Assembly: GCA_964016885.1 (NCBI GenBank)
Contig: OZ024746.1
Location: 13,516,001-13,580,000 of the forward strand
DNA: 64,000 nt
Reading direction: 5' to 3'
Source of the DNA: Eledone cirrhosa
Taxonomy: Eukaryota
Part shown: piece after piece, positions 13,888 through 37,259 of the stretch
Position numbering within the stretch: position 1 is the stretch's first letter
Layout: each line of letters opens with the position of its first letter
Made by a program: the position numbers and the translations under genes
Notes under the pieces: model-generated
Database searches by the model: none
Told to the model about the DNA's origin: nothing
What the model saw: only the letters and a program-made list of their open reading frames with translations

Positions 13888-15151
13888 ATTTGGTGAGACA
13901 ATTACAAGAGAGGTTCTTAGAGAAAAATAAGCCACTATACTTAGCCTTTCTTGACCTAGAGAAGGCCTTTGATAGGGTACCCCGATCTGTCATCTGGTGG
14001 TCCCTAAGGAAACTAGGTGTTGAGGAATGGCTTGTGAGGACAATGCAAACTTTGTACAGAGGTACTGTCAGTAAAGTCAGGGTAGGAATGGAGTTTAGTA
14101 AGGAATTCTAGATACAAGTAGGAGTACATCAAGGTTCGGTCCTCAGCCCGCTCTTGTTCATTATAGTCCTCCAAGCCATAACAGAGGAATTTAAGACTGG
14201 CTGTCCATGGGAACTTCTGTGCTGACGATCTGGTTCTTATAGCAGAATCAGTAGAGGAGCTAGAGAATAAATTCTGGCTATGGAAACAGCAGTTGGAAGC
14301 AAGAGGACTGAGAGTGAACCTAGCTAAGACAAAAATGTTGAGTAATAACCATGTTCGATATGCAGAAAAGGAACTGGCATAAATTCTATAAAATGCACAC
14401 AATGCAGATCCTGGGTACACAAGAGATGTAGTGGGATAGCAGGCAAACTAACAGGTAGGGAGAAATATGTATGCGGTAGGTGTACAGGGAAATTAGACAG
14501 TAGAAGTCGCATTGATGACACATTTTTCAAATGCAGGCGGGTGCTATAGAAGTGGTGGATAGCTTTCAGTACCTAGGAGATCAGATTAGCATGGAAGGGG
14601 GATGTTCCGAGGTCATAGTATCTAGAATAAGGACGGGTTGGAAGAAGTTTAGGGAGCTGCTTCCTCTCCCTGGGTAGGAAAGGCTGGTTATATGATGCCT
14701 GTGTGAGGAGCGCGATGCTGCATGGTAGTGAGACATGGGCAGCAACTGCAGAGGATAGGCAACGGCTGGAGAGAAATGAGGCAAGCATGCTCCGTTGGAT
14801 GTGCAATGCCAATGTGCGTGAACGACCCAGCAGAAATGTGTTGAGAGAGAAACTGTGTCTGAGAGGGATAGCATGTGTGCGAGAGAGGAGACTGAGGTGG
14901 TACGGACATGTGATGCGCATGGAGGATGACCGATGGGTGAAGAAGTGCCAGGAAATGCCAGTTGAGGGAAGACGTGGTAGAGGTAGACCACGAAAAACAT
15001 GGGCGGAGGTGGTGAGAACAGACCTCAGATGGCTGAAGCTCACGGTGGAGATGACGAAGGACCGTGACGAGTGGAGAGATGCTGTGCTGAATAAGACCCG
15101 TCCCACCCTTGCAAGCATGGAAAAGCAGACGTAAAATGATGATGATGATGA
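13888..15151 (+). mobile_element. 5'-truncated RTE-clade LINE (PHD-in-RT family)
   Basis: LVRQLQERFLEKNKPLYLAFLDLEKAFDRVPR, GVHQGSVLSP, (Y)ADDLVL, C4HC3 insert at 14352-14483, LRWYGHVMRM and GRGRPRKTW, ending in GCAAGCATGGAAAAGCAGACGTAAA(ATG)n. It has a few stops and frameshifts. Confidence 0.95.
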
Positions 15152-15254
15152 TACATATACACACATATATACAGCTTGGTGCCACGGTTGATATATATAT
15201 ATATATCGACCGTGGCACCAAGCTGTATATATTTGTGTGTATATGTATATATGG

Positions 15255-18100
15255 AGGCTATGGGTTTGGTACTAGAAATGAGGAAGGCTCCAGAATCCTG
15301 GAATTCTGTGACGCAAATAACCTAACTCTGTAACACTAACTTCAAAAAACGAAACAATCACTTGATCACCTATAGATCAGGGGAACATGCCAGTCAGATA
15401 GATTATATCCTTACCAGAAGACGTGATAGAGTGTCTGTTGTAAACACTAAATCCCTTCCCACCCATGAAGAATGCACCTCCCAACATAGACTCATAGTCA
15501 GCGACCTCATAGTCAGGACAAGACGTACTTGACAACAGAGGAGGACTATCCTCAGGAGAAAAATATGGAAGCTAAAGGACCCCACAGCCAGTAATAAATT
15601 TAAAAGCATATTACTTGATGCTTTTGACAGTAAGGAAGGGCAATTAGAGTCGTACAATATAGAGGAACAGTGGGAATTCCTGAAAGCTAACCTGCTGAAG
15701 GCGGCAGATGAAGTCTGTGGCTGGAGCAGACCTATAGGCAGGAGGAGAGTAACATGGTGGTGGAACAGTAAGGTGGAGGAGTCAATTAAGGCCAAAAAGC
15801 AGGCTTGGAAAGTATGGGGGAAGTAGAGAAGACTATCAAGTGGCCAGGAGGGAAGCTAGGAGACAAGTGTACTTCGTAAGAAGAGAAGCAGAGGAAAGAA
15901 AGTTCAAGCATGTTCTACAACGCGAGGACCAAAAACGTGAGGTGTTCAGGATTGCTAGGCAATGTGTCAAGGAAAACCCTGATATTGTCGGGGAGAAGTG
16001 TGTCCTTAATGATGATGGTGTACTTGCCATCACTGACGCTGATAAGAAGGTAGCTTGGAAGTGTCACTACGGAAGGCTACTGAATGAGGAGAATAAATGG
16101 GAGAAAGACAGTCTCCCCCACATCGATCCAATAGAGGGACCAGCAGTGCTAGTTGATGGTAGTATAATAAGGCAATCAAAGATATGAAGACAGGTAAGGC
16201 GGCTGGGCCTTCGGAAATAGCTGCTGAAATGCTGAAAGCATCTGGAATGGTGGGACACACTATGGTCACCCGGATAGTAAACCAAGTCATACAGAATGGG
16301 GTCGTTCCGAAGGACTGGCGTAGCAGCATCATCATTAACTGCTACAATGGTAAAGGAGATGCCCTAGATAGGGGTAACTATAGAGGCATTAAATTAATCG
16401 ACCAGGTCATGAAGGTCACAGAAAAAGTAATAGCGCAACTAATCAGAGAGCGAATTGATCTAGATGAAATGCAGTTTGGGTTTGTGTCAGGTAAAAGTAC
16501 CACAGACGCTCTTTTCATTGTACGGCAACTACAGGAGTAGTACCTAGCTAAAAGTAAACCCCTATACTTAGCTTTTGTCGACTTGGAGAAAGCATTTGAC
16601 AGTCCCCCGCTCCATTATCTGGTGAGCTCTTAGAAAACTAGGTGTTGATGAATGGCTTGTGAAAGCTATACAAGCCATGTATAAAGAAACACTCAGCAAG
16701 GTTAGAATTAACAACGAATATAGTGAAGAGTTTAGCATAAAAGTTGTTCATCAGGGCTCCGTTCTTAGCCCCCTACTATTTATTATTGCCCTTCAGGCTA
16801 TAACAGGATTTCAAGACCGGCTCCCCATGAGAACTCCTATACGCAGATGATCTAACGCTCATTACTGAATCAATGGCTGAACTAGAGAAGACATTTCAAA
16901 CATGGAAGCATAGCCTAGAATCAAAAGGCCTTAAAATTAACCTGTCTAAGACTAAAGTTCTAGTTTGTAGGAAGGAAAATAGGGCACCAGTCCTATCTGG
17001 GAAATGGTCATGCTCAGTGTGTAGGAAAGGAGTAGGCAGAAACTCCATTTTATGTCTCAAATGCAAAGTATGGGTGCATAAAAGATGTAGTGGGATCACA
17101 GGTAAGCTAACTAAGAATATAGATTTTATATGTGGCCGGTGCTCTGGTGCAATAAGTAGCAGCAAGTGCCCACAGAATACTAGCTCATTCCATTGCACAG
17201 ATGGTTCTATAGAAATAGTGGACACCTTCCATTACCTGGGTGACAAAATTAGCAGTGGTGGAGGGTGCTCTGAAAGTACAGTAGTCAGAACGGGATGGAA
17301 AAAGTTCAGAGAGCTTATACCACTATTAGCCGCTAACGGGTTCTCTCAAAAAATGAAAGGCAGGCTGTATGATGCCTGCATACGAACAGCAATGCTACAT
17401 GGCAGTGAGACTTGAGCATTGTGTGCAGAGGATATACGCAGACTGGAGAGAAACGAAGCTTGCATGCTCCACTGGATGTGTAATAGTAATATACGTGAAC
17501 GGCAAAGCATAAACGAACTAAGGGAGAAATTAGGAATAAGAGGGATCAGATGTTGTTTACTCGAGAGAAGACTACGTTGGTACGGTCACGTGATGCCCAT
17601 GAAAGACCCAGAAAAACCTGGGACGACTTGATAAATTCCGACCTCACACACTTACACAAGACAATGTCACTGGATCGAGATCTTTGGCGCTACACAGTAA
17701 TACAGAAGACCCGCCTTGCCTAAGTACAAAGCGAAACCTACAGTCAGTAGGCACCTCTAACAAAAACACACCCCCGTCCCACTACCACCACCCCATCCAC
17801 ACCACCCCTTTCAATGTAAAGTTATGTTGGTACCACAACATCCAGTCCGGAACATGAGGTCGTGTAGGTGTCACGACAAAAAAACACAGTCCACGCTGTA
17901 ATGTGGCTGTGTAGGTAACACGGTAAAAACCTCCCAGTCCACACTGTAAACGTGGTTGGTGTTAGGAAAGGCATCCAGCCGTAGAAAACCCGCCAGACAG
18001 TCCTATACGAGCAAGACAACCAATCTAGCTTCAAGTGGGAAAATTCCCGTCCAAACCCATGTAAGCGTGGAAGATGGACGTTAAATGATGATGATGATGA
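15255..18100 (+). mobile_element. RTE-clade LINE, 5'-truncated within the APE endonuclease (PHD-in-RT family)
   Basis: Endonuclease C-terminus GGYGFGTRNEEGSRILEFC...SQIDYIL, RT motifs (GKAAGPSEIAAEML, NYRGIKL, QFGF, YADDL), C4HC3 insert at 17011-17142 and LRWYGHV. The 3' region ends in an (ATG)n tail at 18100. Multiple disablements are present. Confidence 0.95.
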
Positions 18101-20789: not shown

Positions 20790-21074
20790 CATAATCATCA
20801 TCATTTAATGTCTATTTTCCATGCTAGCATGAATTAGATGGGTTTGTCCCATTAGATGCAAGTTGGGTCAGGTGACCATCTTGCTCATATAGGACTGTTT
20901 CTGGCTTGGTTTCTACAGCTGGATGCCCTTCCTAATGCCACCCTCAGTGTGTGCTGGGTGCTTTTTGTTGTCTCCTACATGACCACTTTACAGTGTGGGT
21001 TGGATGTTTTTGTGATACTAGCATAACTTTTCAGTGTAAGGGTGGTGTGGGCAGAAGTGGGAGGTGGTGTGGGG

Positions 21075-21275
21075 GTATATATTTATATATATATATATAT
21101 GTGTGTGTGTATGTGAATGTATATGTGTGTGTGTGTATGTGAATGTGTATATATATATATATGTGTGTATGTGAATGTGTGTGTATGTGAATGTATATAT
21201 GTGTGTATGTGAATGTATATATATGTGTGTGTGAATGTATATATATATGTGTGTGTGTGTGTGTGTATGTGAATG

Positions 21276-21310
<35 letters not shown>

Positions 21311-21319
21311 ATGTGAATG

Positions 21320-21352
<33 letters not shown>

Positions 21353-21898
21353 ATGTGAATGTATATATATATATATATGTGTGTGTATGTGAATGTATAT
21401 ATATATATATGTGTGTGTGTATGTGAATGTATATATATATATATGTGTGTGTGTATGTGAATGTATATATATATATATATGTGTGTGTATGTGAATGTAT
21501 ATATATATATATGTGTGTGTGTGTATGTGAATGTATATATATATGTGTGTGTGTATGTGAATGTATATATATATATATATGTGTGTGTATGTGAATGTAT
21601 ATATATATATATATATGTGTGTGTGTATGTGAATGTATATATATATATATATGTGTGTGTGTATGTGAATGTATATATATATATATATATATATGTGTGT
21701 ATGTGAATGTATATATATATATATGTGTGTGTGTATGTGAATGTATATATATATGTGTGTGTGTATGTGAATGTATATATATATGTGTGTGTGTATGTGA
21801 ATGTATATATATATATGTGTGTGTGTATGTGAATGTATATATATATATATGTGTGTGTATGTGAATGTATATATATATATATGTGTGTGTGTATGTGA

Positions 21899-21944
<46 letters not shown>

Positions 21945-21953
21945 ATGTGAATG

Positions 21954-21984
<31 letters not shown>

Positions 21985-22275
21985 ATGTGAATGTATATAT
22001 ATGTGTGTGTATGTGAATGTATATATATATGTGTGTATGTGAATGTATATATATATATATATATATGTGTGTGTATGTGAATGTATATATATATATGTGT
22101 GTGTGTGTGTATATGTGAATGTTTATGTATATATATATATGTGTGTGTGTGTGTATATGTTTATGTATATATATATATATGTGTGTGTGTGTGTATATGT
22201 GAATGTATATGTATATATATATATATATGTGTGTATATGTGAATGTATATGTATATATATGTGTGTGTGTGTGAA

Positions 22276-22315
<40 letters not shown>
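21075..22315. repeat. Compound micro/minisatellite [(TA)n(TG)n GTATGTGAAT]n
   Basis: Dozens of GTATGTGAATG anchors are separated by variable TA/TG tracts. Confidence 0.97.
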
Positions 22316-30847: not shown

Positions 30848-31033
30848 TTTACCAGAAAATATCTAAAAACAGGTGTGTTAATTCAGATGTCTATAGTATC
30901 TTTGTTAGTAGACAGATTATGTAAATTTTCAGTTTTGGAGTAAAGTCTTCAAATTTTAATGTGATGCAGTTTTGAACTCTTCAAGAATGTCTTGCTAATG
31001 CGGTTTGATGTGATACAGGACATTAAGAGTTAA
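30848..31033 (+). repeat. Dispersed repeat end terminating in GAG|TTAA (also 9945-10034; split copy at 45823-45924 + 47003-47085)
   Basis: TTTTAATGTGATGCAG...TTCAAGAAT.T.TTGCT.ATG.GG...ACAGGACATT..GAGTTAA occurs at three loci. Confidence 0.7.
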
Positions 31034-33716
31034 GGATGAACCTCTTGCCTTTTCAATAAAAGGTCCATGTATCACCTGTAAAATGATTTGGTACATAGGA
31101 TATGCAAAAAGAAATGTTTTTGTAAATGAAATGAAATTTACAACAATCACCTAAGCAGGTTTAGCTGGCCTCTGAGGAATTTGCATAAGATATAGAGAAA
31201 CTGAAAGCTAAAAATTTGCTAATCCCCTGACAAGGATTAGAGGCTCGAGGTGTACACATTGCAAAGTTATGTCAGAGTGAATCACAATATTAGGGGGAAA
31301 AGTGTATTTGGTATGACACTACTACACTTAGCCTCAGAAATTTTGAGGAAAATGTGTATTTGGTATGATACTGGTACACTTAGCCTCAACAATGTTTAAA
31401 AGAAAGAGTCTTAGAAATGTTACTGAGAGAGGTTGCTGAATGTGGAAAATAAGTGGAAGGAAGTAGACCTAACAGGGACCAGCTATTGAAGATGACATAT
31501 GTTGAAAGAAGCTCCCAGGAATATGGAAAAGGGGAAATTTGGTGGACCATCGGAGATAGTTGCTGTGATGCTGAAAACAACTATAATTTTGTATTAACTT
31601 CTAAAAACTATTAATTTTATATCAGTTGTTACATTTTTTTATGGTCATCATAAATTCTTAAAATATAAAGATGTAATATCACATTTTATATTTCAAACTA
31701 CTTTTGATATAAAACTATTTTTAAAATGTTTATATTTTTCTAAAAACATTTCATAATTTTATGTAAGAACCTTTAACCCTTTAGCATTCACATTACTCTA
31801 TATATACTATTATATTTTCATGGTAAAGGCTTTACCTCGCATAATTATCTCACATAATATCGAATCTATGAGATTTTGAAAGTATTTATTCAGTTTGAGT
31901 GACCAGTTACAGCCAGTTTCAACAGAAAAAGGTAGAGAATTCTGGCTGGTTTTGGCCGGTTTGAACATTAAAGGGACTGCGCTTCAAACACCAACTTAAA
32001 AGTGAAAGTTATTTTACTAAATCCCTCCAAATTCTTCATTATTTTCAAAATTAATTGAAAATTATGGGCAGTATCTTCTGAGAAATATGGTAACAAAACG
32101 GTTAAAGAAAACCTTTTAATTCTCATTCACTATAGAGGAAAACATTCCTTGAAAAAGAACCAATACTATTTCTAAAGTTCTATTTCAGATCAATTTTATT
32201 TTTTCTTATTATAAATCAATTCCAGGATAATCATGTTTTATATTTGGATGTGGCAAGCCAAATATAAAGATAATTTATTGGGTTCTTTCCTTTTGGTTTG
32301 GGAACGTCAGAATTTGTGCTGAATTCTTTTGATACCAATCCATCTGAAACGGTACTAGTTTCATGATAAAACAGTCCATTTTAAGTGTACGAGCCAAAAA
32401 ATATGTGACAACAACAACAAAATGCGATGGTAATTTGTTATTGTGGGGGGGGGGGGGGGCATATTTGGGGTCAATGTTTTGCTGATTTCCACCAACTTCA
32501 ACATCTTATATAAAAAAATGGTCCCCAAATATCTAGTGATTGCTTTACAATGAAACAATGTTTTACTATATTTTTACAGAATATTTATAGTCTTCAGTTT
32601 TCATTTTTGCCTGCATGTTAAAAAAATCATGTAAAAACTTAAAAAACACTTTGGATATCAAAATATTAAAACTATATTAAAATATTCTCCTCTCACGAGA
32701 ATTTACAAAACTGTGCCATCTAAACATGTGTTGATTAGCTGCCTTGACTTATAAATGGGGTTTGGATTTTGGTGGGGTGGTTATATTCAAGTACATCATA
32801 ATTTTATATAAGAACTTTTATGTTCTGAACGACTGTTTAATGAAAAAGTTGTTACTAAAACTCTCTCAAATTCAACATTAACCGAAATACATTCATTGTA
32901 TTTCATGAGATATATTGTTAGGAAAGGGTTAAATAATTGTTAGCAGTAATAATCTGTCCAATAAAATTCAGGTGGTGAAGGGGGTTATATTTTCAAGTCT
33001 TTCTACAGTTGTCCTTTTGAGCAGGATGCCATCTACATAACTAAAGATATAATTTATCATAGTTTATGCAATGCATATGCTTTATTAAGCACAGTTGCCT
33101 AATCTCCCTTAAATCACACCCTTCTGTCTTAACATACCTTGGATAATGTAGCAACTAATGTACAAAAAAGATTGAGTCATCATAACTGGAACACCTGTGG
33201 TAATTCTGCTCAATCAGAGCTGATTTATGGGGTTAACGAGAACAATAATATATTCAAATATGTTAATGATCAAATTGACAAACAACCTTTTCATAAATTA
33301 GAAATAGAATGGAATATTGGTTTTAACGAGTCATTGGACTGTGACCATGCTTGGGCATTGCCTTTAATTATATCGACTGTTCCACTTTGTTACTTGTTAC
33401 ATATTAAATCAACATTGATAGGAAAAATGTAAGCGTCTTGAATGTAAAGGGGGTAATTGAGATGAAACCAAATACCATAAATAATTTTTGTTTAGTGCCT
33501 GATTATACCTCCTACTCTCTGATGTGTGTGTTTGGTGCCGCCCCTCTGATACTATACCTTTAGATATGTGTATGTATATTTCGTGCCCCCGCCCCCCATC
33601 CCCTCCTCTCTGTACAATTGGTACCCCTGATACTGTCATCATCTCGCTGATATGTGGATATGTATGTATGCAAGCATGGAAAAATTTGTGTGTGTGTATG
33701 TCAATGTATATATATA

Positions 33717-34474
33717 CAAGGTGTCAAAAAAGAAACATGACCAGGGTCGCCAAAAAATTATTTCAAATCCAAACTACAAGTTTTCCTTCGAAATAATCCT
33801 CCTCGAGTCTAACGTACTTACCCATCCTTCTCCACCACATTTCCATGCACTTCTGAAAGAATTTTCTGCAGCCATTGTCACAGTCCTCTTAATGGCTCTG
33901 GTGCATGGTCTCTGGGTTATATTCAAAAAGATCCATGACTCATTACTGGTGATGACTCCCCGCTAAGTTTAGTTCAAGGCATTTGAGGACCCTACATAAG
34001 CTGCTTCTGGCCATTGTTCAGTGGCTTCAAGCACCGTCTTCGCGCAGATCTTCCATGTGCCCAAATCTCCAGTGATAATCTTCCCAACTTTGTCATGGTT
34101 CATGCCCAGCTCACCAACTTTGGCCTCAGTTTTGCTTGTTGAAGGCCTTCCACTCCTGGAGTTGTCTTTGAACCTTTTGTGCCACTTGAAAGCCTGTCAG
34201 CACAACATCGCCTCGTCTCCATACACTTGCTGTATTATTCTGAGTGCTTCTGATGGAGTTTTCCCCTGCTAGTTAGTTCATTGCTCTGTCTGTGCCCATC
34301 ACTCGCTGGCCTAAAATTAAGGAGCTGCTAACAACAGCATGTGAAAAAATATACCATGGTTGCAGAGAACCGAGATCGCAGTTATATACTTCCTGGTGAC
34401 GCAATCCTCTAATCCCTACCCCACCTTTAGCTCACTCAGCGCACTAAGTCCTGTTACTTTTCTGACACATCTCG
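33717..34474 (-). mobile_element. Internally deleted mariner element with both TIRs
   Basis: Imperfect TIRs TA|CAAGGTGTCAAAAAGAAACATGAC and GTCCTGTTACTTTTCTGACACATCTCG|TA. Minus-strand remnants GKTPSEALRIIQQVYGDEAM, DNSRSGRPSTS, VITSNESWIF and EDYFEG. Confidence 0.85.
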
Positions 34475-36956
34475 TATGTATATCTGTGCATGAATGTATA
34501 TCTATGTGTATGTATGTATATATATGGCTTCTCAATACACGTCTTTTTTCTCAATTTATTTTTTGCTCTATCTTTCTATTTCATTTTTTATTTCTCATTC
34601 TATCTACTGATGAAGGACTAGTATTAAGACTCTTTCCTATATCAAGCGTTAAACTAATATATTTCTTTATTGTACTGCGTCATCTGCTTTGCATTTTCTG
34701 TTTATCTTTTGCCTCTCTCTCTCTGTAGGTGCGTGTGTATGTGTATGCATCTGTATGTATGCGTGTATACAGGTTTCTTCATATTTTTCATCCACTGAAA
34801 GATCTCACACAAAATATTTTCATCTATCTGAAGATATAGAAAATACTTGCCCAAGATAAGGAGTGGGTTCAAATCTAGGCCTGTACCATCTCTGATTGTC
34901 TGTGGGCTAATTTTTTCCATAATTGTTTAGTAATATTCCTGGCCTTTTATAGGCTAATTTTATGGTGAAGTTAAGGCAGAAGTTGTATTAGAATATCTAT
35001 ACCAGTTTCTCTGGTAATATTGTTTGAAGAACAATTTAATTTGTCTGGAACAAATGGATCTAGAATCTCCATAAAATCAAATGTTTACTATATTATTTAT
35101 CCTTTTTACAGCCGATGTTATTCTAATGGTGACAGCTCTACCAGATGCACTGCAATACTAGTTTTATAAATAAAGTTTGGTTGAAAAAAATATATTGTAT
35201 TCGACTTTTTTCTCTACAATTACCTTCAGATAATCTTTGAAGTGTGACTATCACTTTACTTACATTTCGGAAAATGTTGGCCTGTTGGTGTCGGTTTCAA
35301 TTCTTATCCTTTTGTGGCAAAATTCAAATAATTCATTTATATTGTCACAATTTTCTAGGTTTTGTCATGATGGCATGGGTTGATAATTTACATTGAAGAG
35401 TCAGACAATTATGTAAATTCTTCAAATAGGTTCTTTACACTAGAATATTCTTCCTCAGTAAATATATTTTGGTTGTAGTTTATGCACCAAATCTATATCG
35501 GTCTATGATGAATATCTCAAAATGTTGTTGTTTCTTTATTTGGTATATAGCTTCATATTTTTAGAGTTGTATGTAAAAGGAAATTACTTTAACCAAGAAT
35601 TGAGACTTGATGTCTTCAATTATTTCAGTAGCTGACATATTTCACTGTTGTACATTTTGTCTTTGTAACATTCTATCATTTTACTTCATAAACTGAAAAC
35701 TAGTGTATGTATACATACAATAAATAAATATATATGTAGAGTTGTGTGTGGCACTTTTAGTTAAAACTTAATTTTTAGAAAATGTCATTTCAAAGTAATA
35801 ATCCAGTTACTATATTAAAATAAAATACCCATATTTCTGATACCCTTTTACTGGTTTCAACCTTCAGTTTGCTTCTATTGGAATATACTTTTATAGTGGG
35901 CCCATTTATGAGAAACCAGCTGGTAATAGCAAAATTGTCCGAAAAGATAAGTTAGTGAATGGAATGAGCATAGTCGACCACAAGCTGGAGGTACATCATA
36001 ATCTCATTTTAATCCAGCTGCATTCCTTTGCTCTTCATCTCTTCTAAATAGCTTCATTTGGGACAATTGCCAAAATCTGTTAGTAATAACAGTTGGAAAA
36101 TGAGACTTTTTTTTTTTTTAGCTAAGATAAAATCAAAAATAGATTTAAATTCCCTACTGTGAGTAACTGGATGAGATATTCTATTTTTTTAAAGAATATT
36201 TCAGTCAACAAAGCAAGTTTTTTTTCTTTTTGAGGTTTCCCTGTTAGTTTTTTTTTTTTTTTTTGCAGGATGTTTGGGTGGGTGGTGTTTATAGATTTGC
36301 AATGGATAAAAAAAACAATGTTACCCTCTTTCTATAAATATTAGATTTTAAAGTTATATATTTAGATTGGATTTTAATATTACAAGAAAATATCAACAAC
36401 TTCAAAATTTGAATTCTGCATTCAAGTTATAAATAAAACATTTTCAGTATGTTGACCCTGCCACAGTATTTTTCAGTCTTAACAGCTTTTTCGATGTTGT
36501 AGTATGTAGTTTTGTTCATTTATTAGAAATGCTTTTTTCAGTTTTCTTTTTAGTTTGTTTTGGTATTTGTTCTTCATATCTGCTTTTAAGTTTAGTTTTT
36601 GTAGTAAATTTAGTTCATATTGAATTGTTTCTCATAGTATCTCATTTCCAACCTTAAAATTGATGTTAGCTATATAGTAATTGGACACCAGATTTGGATT
36701 CGTTGAACTGTGAATGCGTGCTATATCACATGTTTTGCTTTGTGTTTTGCTGTAGATTCTTAGTATTTTGATTTTGATCATCTGTTGAGTAGATCAAGGA
36801 GGATTTGTTTAAAATGGTGCTTGGAGTTCTTCGGAATCGTTCTGCTTAATTACTTTATTTGCTTGAGATAGTAGTTGTTGTCGTAAGCAGTTATGTAGAG
36901 GTAGGAATTGTTTCGTGTCCTATTCTCTAATTACTTTTTCAACTGTTTTTATTTAG

Positions 36957-37259
36957 GAAACTCCACAGAAGATCCTAATGTAGTAATTGAAACTGTTGAA
37001 GACAATGCTGACACTGAGAAAAAACCAACTCTTACTACCAAAAACCCAGTTATGTATCTAAATGAATTGTTGCCTGAACCTTTGGTTTATGAACTGATGT
37101 CAGAATCTGGTCCTCCTCATGATAGGAATTTTGTCATGTCTGTAAAGGCTAATGACCAAACGGTGCAGGGGGCTGGTCGCAGCAAGAAACTTGCCAAGGC
37201 AGCAGCTGCCCAAGTAGCTTTGTTTAAGCTTTTCAACATCGTCTACATCTCAGAACCAG
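36957..37259 (+). CDS. ADAR2: Internal exon encoding one complete dsRNA-binding motif; putative extra N-terminal dsRBM exon of cephalopod ADAR2
   Basis: Acceptor tttttatttAG| with CTAAT branch-like site at 36927-31, donor CCAG|GTCAGT. Length is 303 nt (3n, phase 1-1). Translation includes KNPVMYLNELLPEPLVYELMSESGPPHDRNFVMSVKANDQTVQGAGRSKKLAKAAAAQVALFKLF, matching the dsRBM pattern and especially ADAR2 dsRBM2 (KNPVM.LNEL, SESG..H...FVMSV, G.GR.KKLAKA.AAQ.AL). The dsRBM call is firm; the ADAR2 name is an inference. Confidence 0.85.

What the first reader, a model, noticed from the sequence alone, without database searches (positions are those of the whole stretch)
36957..37259. Symmetric cassette exon carrying a whole extra dsRBM: likely octopod counterpart of the squid ADAR2a optional exon
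Seen: this is the only recognisable host exon in about 63 kb after exon 1. It is 303 nt, enters and leaves in phase 1 and holds exactly one dsRBM, so skipping it would keep the frame. It follows a 13-residue first exon directly, so the domain is N-terminal. Known: squid ADAR2 has two splice forms differing by an optional exon with an extra N-terminal dsRBM that raises editing activity (Palavicini, O'Connell and Rosenthal 2009). Inference: this is the orthologous switch. The motif looks more like canonical ADAR2 dsRBM2 (KNPVM.LNEL) than dsRBM1 (KNALMQLNE), which suggests the extra domain arose by duplication of dsRBM2 into intron 1.
Basis: partly seen in the sequence, partly recalled or inferred. 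Interest (0 to 1): 0.75.

Follow-up and report, generated by a model that had tools for sequence, protein, structure and literature searches.

The report
Octopus ADAR2 optional RNA-binding exon
This stretch is an exon of the octopus RNA-editing enzyme ADAR2 that adds a third RNA-binding domain and is skipped in RNA of related octopods, matching a switch already known from squid that likely tunes how strongly the enzyme edits RNA; snail and clam ADAR2 gene models carry a similar extra domain, so it is probably not a cephalopod invention.

Summary
Confirmed and largely known. Window 36957-37259 is a 303-nt, phase-1/phase-1 exon with one dsRBM in an octopod ADAR2 gene. The two canonical dsRBMs and an intact deaminase lie 54-93 kb downstream; the spliced protein is 86.6% identical to squid ADAR2a. 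Squid ADAR2a and 2b differ by a 99-residue insert with exactly this exon's borders. RNA of related octopods shows skipping (34+6 reads in one run) and inclusion (3 contig sets); skipping in this species itself was not seen. The dsRBM2 likeness is in print. Two things go beyond the papers I could search. An extra N-terminal dsRBM occurs in ADAR2 models of 6 gastropod and 8 bivalve genera, against the published view that it appears cephalopod-unique; single origin is favoured, not proven. The exon also looks far more conserved as DNA among octopods than the next exon.

The parts
1121..1160 (+). Coding part of first exon 1a (13 codons + 1 nt, phase-1 GT donor)
   Evidence: 34 raw RNA reads of organism D carry window 1129-1158 (30 of 30 letters) before exon 3. 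Same 13 residues begin O. sinensis/vulgaris models P0130 and P0132.
1630..1672 (+).
   Evidence: 6 raw reads (X24, 27 of 30 letters match 1637-1666) and one X10 contig join it to exon 3. 7 of 14 residues identical to squid ADAR2a/b; 12 of 13 to O. sinensis P0131.
36955..36956 (+). AG splice acceptor after a T-rich tract
36957..37259 (+). Cassette exon 2: 303 nt, phase 1/1, 101 codons (short acidic linker plus extra dsRBM)
   Evidence: 82 of 99 residues identical to the squid optional insert, same borders. Its 3' end precedes exon 3 in contigs of X1, X5, X10.
37034..37240 (+). Extra dsRBM core (residues 26-94 of P0001), with its basic KKxAK motif intact
   Evidence: Pfam PF00035, PDB ADAR2 alignments; 70 of 76 identical to squid over the domain and exon end
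37260..37261 (+). GT splice donor (GTCAGT); the intron runs 53.8 kb to exon 3 outside the window (G000:C6:13607098)

Best explanation
The stretch is the optional second exon of the octopod ADAR2 gene: it encodes a third, N-terminal dsRNA-binding motif, is both included and skipped in RNA of related octopods, and likely works as in squid, where the long form binds RNA more tightly and edits more sites. Shown: because the exon and both first exons are phase 1, either first exon can join exon 2 or exon 3 in frame, giving four open proteins of 679-781 aa. Inferred from squid: inclusion gives a three-dsRBM ADAR2a of higher affinity, skipping gives the canonical two-dsRBM ADAR2b, and the ratio differs by tissue or cell compartment. 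Inferred origin: a copy of dsRBM2 with its downstream phase-1 donor, placed ahead of dsRBM1, most likely once in an ancestor of cephalopods, gastropods and bivalves.
For: Gene identity: two more dsRBMs 54 kb and a deaminase 91-93 kb downstream on the same strand; 5-exon ORF without stops, 675 of 779 identical to squid ADAR2a; 15 of 16 listed zinc, proton-shuttle and IP6 residues identical to squid, the 16th is Ser as in human ADAR2. Orthology: squid a and b share 14 leading and 673 trailing residues and differ by one 99-aa insert that aligns end to end with this exon. Splicing: skip junctions in X24 (34 reads from 1a, 6 from 1b) and X10; inclusion junctions in X1, X5, X10; all four forms in NCBI octopus models. 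Function in squid: passages of PMC10278661, PMC7192619, PMC4384741, PMC5705066. Origin: all 18 extra domains are closer to dsRBM2 than dsRBM1 (window 0.45 vs 0.37); exon 2 and exon 3 end at nearly the same place behind their last dsRBM, both in phase 1; extra domains form one group at 95/90 in the 62-row tree.
Against: Skipping was not seen in this species: the one non-genomic-sized run with identical sequence (X15, kind not on record) gave a single contig that fits inclusion, and its upstream letters were not shown. Junctions from either first exon into exon 2 were never displayed in reads. No octopus biochemistry was found; on perfect duplex RNA squid 2a and 2b converted alike (48% vs 53%) and edited the same four Kv1.1 sites in one assay (PMC10278661). 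Single origin is not robust: with flanks trimmed and 42 rows the extra domains were one group in only 10% of bootstrap trees; AU tests rejected neither one clade (p 0.45) nor a cephalopod-only duplication of dsRBM2 (p 0.16).
Confidence: 0.9

Rival explanations
1. The exon is constitutive in this species; skipping happens only in relatives.
For: X15 (0 differences from this genome) gave one contig through exon 3 that fits inclusion, with no second contig at the exon 3 start.
Against: Contigs drop minor forms. X11 and X24 are the same organism, yet X11 assembles as inclusion and X24 reads are about 40 of 41 skipping. Frame symmetry is intact.
Confidence: 0.05
2. The switch matters mainly for where the enzyme goes (nucleus or soma versus axon), not for catalytic strength.
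For: In squid, nerve and axoplasm hold only ADAR2b while ADAR2a is seen in somata; the authors suggest the third dsRBM favours nuclear retention (PMC7192619 passages). Equal activity on perfect duplex.
Against: Several papers report higher affinity and more edited sites for 2a. The two roles are not exclusive, so this confidence is for it being the main role.
Confidence: 0.25
3. The extra dsRBM is a cephalopod innovation and the extra domains of snails and bivalves arose separately.
For: Cephalopod and other molluscan extra domains are only 27-45% identical; trimmed tree unresolved; AU p 0.16; scallops show that further duplications occur.
Against: Same position ahead of dsRBM1 in 17 of 23 mollusc genera examined and in no named non-mollusc except one bird model with a repeated dsRBM1; grouped at 95/90 in the fuller tree; in neither tree does the cephalopod extra domain join cephalopod dsRBM2.
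Confidence: 0.2
4. The exon belongs to another dsRBM gene (ILF3/STRBP, Staufen, TARBP2) or is a stranded pseudo-exon.
For: ILF3's second dsRBM scores 58.6 bits against it, near ADAR2's 62.2.
Against: It is joined to ADAR2 exon 3 in contigs of three organisms and is 93% identical over 69% of its length to an ADAR2 of the squid cluster.
Confidence: 0.01

Closest known systems
Squid ADAR2a/ADAR2b optional exon (Doryteuthis opalescens ACO52474/ACO52475; Palavicini et al. 2009, 2012, not held, seen only through citing papers)
   Same: Same gene, same insert borders after residue 14, one extra N-terminal dsRBM, 70 of 76 identical over the domain, both splice forms.
   Different: 101 codons here against 99; linker only 12 of 23 identical; the octopod gene has a further first exon (1a) that is not in the two squid entries.
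NCBI models of Octopus sinensis / O. vulgaris ADAR2 (XP_029637249-53) and Argonauta hians GAB1608333
   Same: All four 1a/1b x included/skipped forms are already annotated; 95-96% identical to the forms spliced here.
   Different: Their exon is 107 codons; this genome lacks 6 linker residues (18 nt).
Gastropod and bivalve ADAR2 models with three or four dsRBMs (Haliotis, Patella, Pomacea, Crassostrea, Mytilus, scallops and others)
   Same: Extra dsRBM2-like domain ahead of dsRBM1; two-domain models exist beside it in several species.
   Different: 27-45% identity to the octopod domain; their short forms have a different or later start, so skipping cannot be told from a second promoter; two scallops carry two extra domains.
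Vertebrate and Drosophila ADAR2
   Same: Two canonical dsRBMs and a deaminase with conserved catalytic residues.
   Different: No extra N-terminal dsRBM (PMC10278661; for vertebrate rows).

Membership tests
ADAR2 (ADARB1-type) genes | C-terminal adenosine deaminase domain with zinc ligands, catalytic Glu and IP6 contacts | tested here: met
   PF02137 E 9.7e-62 and 5e-39 downstream; 15 of 16 residues equal to squid, the 16th equal to human
ADAR2 (ADARB1-type) genes | Two canonical dsRBMs of the ADAR2 dsRBM1 and dsRBM2 types ahead of the deaminase | tested here: met
   Exon 3 holds both; they group with dsRBM1 (100/100) and dsRBM2 (86/75) of other ADAR2s
Squid ADAR2a optional exon | One in-frame exon between the first exon and the dsRBM1/2 exon that encodes one extra dsRBM | tested here: met
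   Borders coincide with the 99-aa squid insert
Squid ADAR2a optional exon | Both included and skipped transcripts exist (related octopods) | tested here: met
   Skip: X24 34+6 reads, X10 contig; inclusion: X1, X5, X10 contigs
Squid ADAR2a optional exon | Both transcripts exist in this very species | tested here: inconclusive
   Only X15 contigs laid; they fit inclusion and cannot show absence of skipping
Squid ADAR2a optional exon | The extra domain raises dsRNA affinity and editing | not testable with these tools
   Known for squid from citing papers; the basic KKxAK motif is intact here
Squid ADAR2a optional exon | ADAR2 message is itself edited | not tested
   Both read-laying runs went to exon 3; no reads were laid on exon 2
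ILF3/STRBP, Staufen, TARBP2 dsRBM genes | dsRBMs in a gene without a deaminase domain | tested here: not met
   The exon is spliced to ADAR2 exon 3, and exon 3 to the deaminase exon (X1)

The most novel reading that the evidence does not exclude
The optional third dsRBM of ADAR2, presented in print as a feature that appears unique to cephalopods and may help explain their massive RNA recoding, is an old mollusc trait that arose once before cephalopods, snails and bivalves split (chiton models lack it). It therefore cannot by itself explain coleoid recoding. What is special to coleoids would be its tight conservation: 92% identical between squid and octopod as protein, and nearly frozen as DNA among octopods while the next exon drifts by 5-11%, which points to an RNA-level control element for splicing or self-editing in the cassette.
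Probability: 0.6. Interest if true: 0.55.

Novelty: new member of a known kind. Interest (0 to 1): 0.32.

Why it matters
ADAR2 is a main candidate for the enzyme behind the very high mRNA recoding of octopus and squid. The exon itself is the expected octopod copy of a known squid switch and is already in public gene models, so it adds little alone. The comparison gives a cheap test of an open question. If snails and bivalves have the same optional domain yet recode little (recalled knowledge, not tested here), the domain's presence is not the coleoid innovation, and attention should move to its sequence, its inclusion level and the RNA substrates. The wide range of inclusion between samples and the DNA-level conservation make the cassette a concrete target for isoform-specific knockout.

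Tried and rejected
Self-editing structure as the cause of conservation: exon folds no better than shuffles (z +1.04; with flanks +0.55); none of the 25 longest of 121 inverted-repeat pairs in 34000-41000 has an arm in the exon; blastn over 154 kb gave two weak minus-strand hits at E 3.5; a duplex scan of 7 tiles over 31000-43000 found 6 within shuffle range and 1 slightly beyond 8 shuffles (-38.4 vs minimum -36.4), not taken as real. Metagenome scan for relatives' exon DNA: 14 loci, none used, none with a cephalopod-like exon 2 by identity. The look-up of sequencing runs listed no holder on record as RNA; this is no evidence either way. One search included a repeat at L003:1100-1190 that crowded the loose-end table (138 rows hidden), so one search repeated it on a narrower stretch. 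X21 gave a contig starting at exon 3 with no upstream letters: no verdict. One search had the exon 4 donor one base off (15 false stops); corrected. No ILF3, STRBP or Staufen rows were in the trees, because no stored sequences were at hand; trees are rooted on dsRBM1 and cannot show a sister relation to dsRBM2. Palavicini 2009 and 2012 and Albertin 2015 were not held. Paper search was uninformative. Earlier-findings look-ups were empty.

Full report
Observation. Window 36957-37259 has an AG before it and GTCAGT after it, is 303 nt, enters and leaves in phase 1, and reads open. Pfam finds one dsrm (E 2.7e-12). Against PDB its best match is ADAR2 dsRBM2 (62.2 bits), then ILF3's second dsRBM (58.6) and ADAR2 dsRBM1 (42.3).

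The gene. The window is G000:C6:13516001-13580000. Two more dsRBMs lie in one 768-nt phase-1/phase-1 exon at C6:13607098-13607865, and the deaminase lies in two exons at C6:13644214-13644882 and 13645690-13646252. Spliced in a script, all four combinations of first exon and cassette give stop-free proteins of 780, 679, 781 and 680 aa. The long 1b form is 675 of 779 identical to squid ADAR2a. Of the 16 catalytic and IP6 residues in Table 1 of PMC10278661, 15 equal squid and one is Ser as in human ADAR2. The gene is ADAR2; the 95-96% identity to Octopus models marks the genome as octopod.

Orthology with the squid switch. Doryteuthis variants a (786 aa) and b (687 aa) were retrieved. They share 14 leading and 673 trailing residues and differ by one 99-residue insert, which aligns end to end with this exon: 82 of 99 identical, 70 of 76 over the domain, 12 of 23 in the linker. 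The squid first 14 residues match window 1630-1672, not 1121-1160.

Splicing evidence. Seven of the 24 listed runs were laid, all on exon 3. In X24 (raw RNA reads of organism D, about 6% of the run read) 34 reads carry window 1129-1158 directly before exon 3 and 6 carry 1637-1666: both skip the exon. Depth arithmetic leaves about 1 read for inclusion, so about 1 of 41 (inferred). Contigs of X1, X5 and X10 carry the last 30 letters before the shared CAG of exon 2, identical to the window, before exon 3; X10 also has a 1b-to-exon 3 contig. Inclusion contigs have depth 30.5 against 172.4 for the main contig in X5 and 7.4 against 96.1 in X10, a rough guide only. X11 (also organism D) and X15 (no difference from this genome) each give one contig that starts aligning at the CAG shared with exon 2 and runs 336 and 363 letters further up; this fits inclusion, but the letters were not shown. 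X21 showed no upstream letters. So inclusion seems to range from a few percent to dominant between samples. Skipping in this species, and reads from a first exon into exon 2, were not seen directly. NCBI models of O. sinensis and O. vulgaris list all four forms, plus further first exons; these are predictions.

Mechanism. Shown: symmetric phases let the cell add or drop one dsRBM without touching the rest. Taken from squid papers: the long form binds dsRNA more tightly and edits more sites, and only the short form is found in axons while the long form is seen in somata. Against a simple activity switch, both squid forms converted perfect duplex alike (48% and 53%) and edited the same four Kv1.1 sites. 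I put identity and cassette status at about 0.95 and a squid-like function at about 0.8.

Origin. PMC10278661 already reports that the squid extra domain groups with dsRBM2. Here all 18 extra domains have higher mean identity to dsRBM2 than to dsRBM1, and exon 2 ends seven residues, exon 3 six residues, after the conserved Phe-Asn of their last dsRBM, both in phase 1. That fits a copy of dsRBM2 with its donor (inference).

Wider distribution. Of 266 fetched proteins over 400 aa, 54 have three or four dsRBMs: 46 named molluscs, 7 unnamed, and 1 bird model with dsRBM1 repeated. By genus, 17 of 23 molluscs have such a form: 3 cephalopod, 6 gastropod, 8 bivalve. The misses are Lottia, Batillaria, Sinanodonta, Mercenaria, Pecten and the chiton Liolophura (3 models); O. 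bimaculoides RefSeq also lacks it, which shows that a missing model is weak evidence. Lingula, Owenia, three hemichordates and Branchiostoma have two. Several gastropods and bivalves have two-domain models beside the long ones, but with different starts. The 62-row tree holds the 18 extra domains together (95/90) with long-branch warnings. The 42-row tree (Littorina, Babylonia, Saccostrea, Mizuhopecten, O. sinensis, Xenopus and Sinanodonta rows left out, flanks trimmed) does not, and AU tests reject neither one origin (p 0.45) nor a cephalopod-only duplication (p 0.16). One origin is the simplest reading, about 0.7.

What is in print. [quoted passage not shown] PMC6651903 classes lophotrochozoan ADAR2 as having two RNA-binding domains; its domain figure in the supplement could not be read and may bear on this. 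Searches found no paper stating a mollusc-wide extra domain; the library lacks most subscription journals and the two Palavicini papers, which may discuss it. Seen: PMC10278661 abstract, introduction, part of methods, passages and whole discussion; passages only of PMC7192619, PMC5705066, PMC6651903, PMC9068888, PMC4384741.

DNA-level conservation. Runs of organisms A-D hold 0.54-0.68 of 28 sampled 31-letter words of exon 2, while their exon 3 differs by 4.7-11% per site, which would leave 0.03-0.22. In organism D, 0 of 317 such words survive in exon 3 positions 1364-1710, and 37 of 40 listed substitutions there are at third codon positions. This suggests constraint on exon 2 beyond the protein. 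Caveats: few words, runs chosen for holding the exon, and no direct alignment. No local RNA structure or complementary arm was found.

Verdict. A real, correctly read exon; the octopod member of a known squid switch, already in public annotation. Interest 0.32, carried by the mollusc-wide distribution and the exon's conservation rather than by the exon itself.

Noticed in passing
window 1630-1672: Second first coding exon (1b), the counterpart of the squid first exon; used by 6 of about 41 junction reads in X24. Whether it has its own promoter or is an extension of exon 1a was not resolved.
   Followed up: partly
L019, about G000:C6:13600208-13600312 (downstream of the window): Match (28 of 36 residues) to a further predicted first exon of O. 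vulgaris/sinensis (P0011). It lies after exon 2, so transcripts from it would bypass the cassette. Donor not located.
   Followed up: partly
window 36957-37259: The exon is 18 nt (6 linker residues) shorter than in O. vulgaris, O. sinensis and Argonauta models; run X15 holds all sampled words, so the short form is not only an assembly feature.
   Followed up: partly
P0013, P0014, P0152 (Argopecten, Mizuhopecten): Scallop ADAR2 models with four dsRBMs, two of them extra.
   Followed up: partly
P0012 (Ficedula model): Three dsRBMs through a repeated dsRBM1 with equal scores; probably an assembly or annotation artefact.
   Followed up: no
L006-L015, L044 (G000:C1:146.44-146.46 Mb, C1:320.73 Mb, C25:17.34-17.36 Mb): Three other deaminase-family loci in the genome, one with a dsRBM just upstream; likely the other ADAR/ADAD/ADAT genes.
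   Followed up: no
window 14631-17412: Open frames that look like LINE reverse-transcriptase fragments in the first intron (resemblance recalled, not searched).
   Followed up: no
window 10338-11142, 21000-22300, 54200-64000, 3592-3791: A tandem repeat array, long dinucleotide-like microsatellite tracts with strong GC skew, and a 200-base run of N in the introns.
   Followed up: no
L003:1476: In X24, 13 of 32 reads show G for A at a third codon position beside a 6-nt deletion and an A-run; allele, editing or misalignment cannot be told apart.
   Followed up: no
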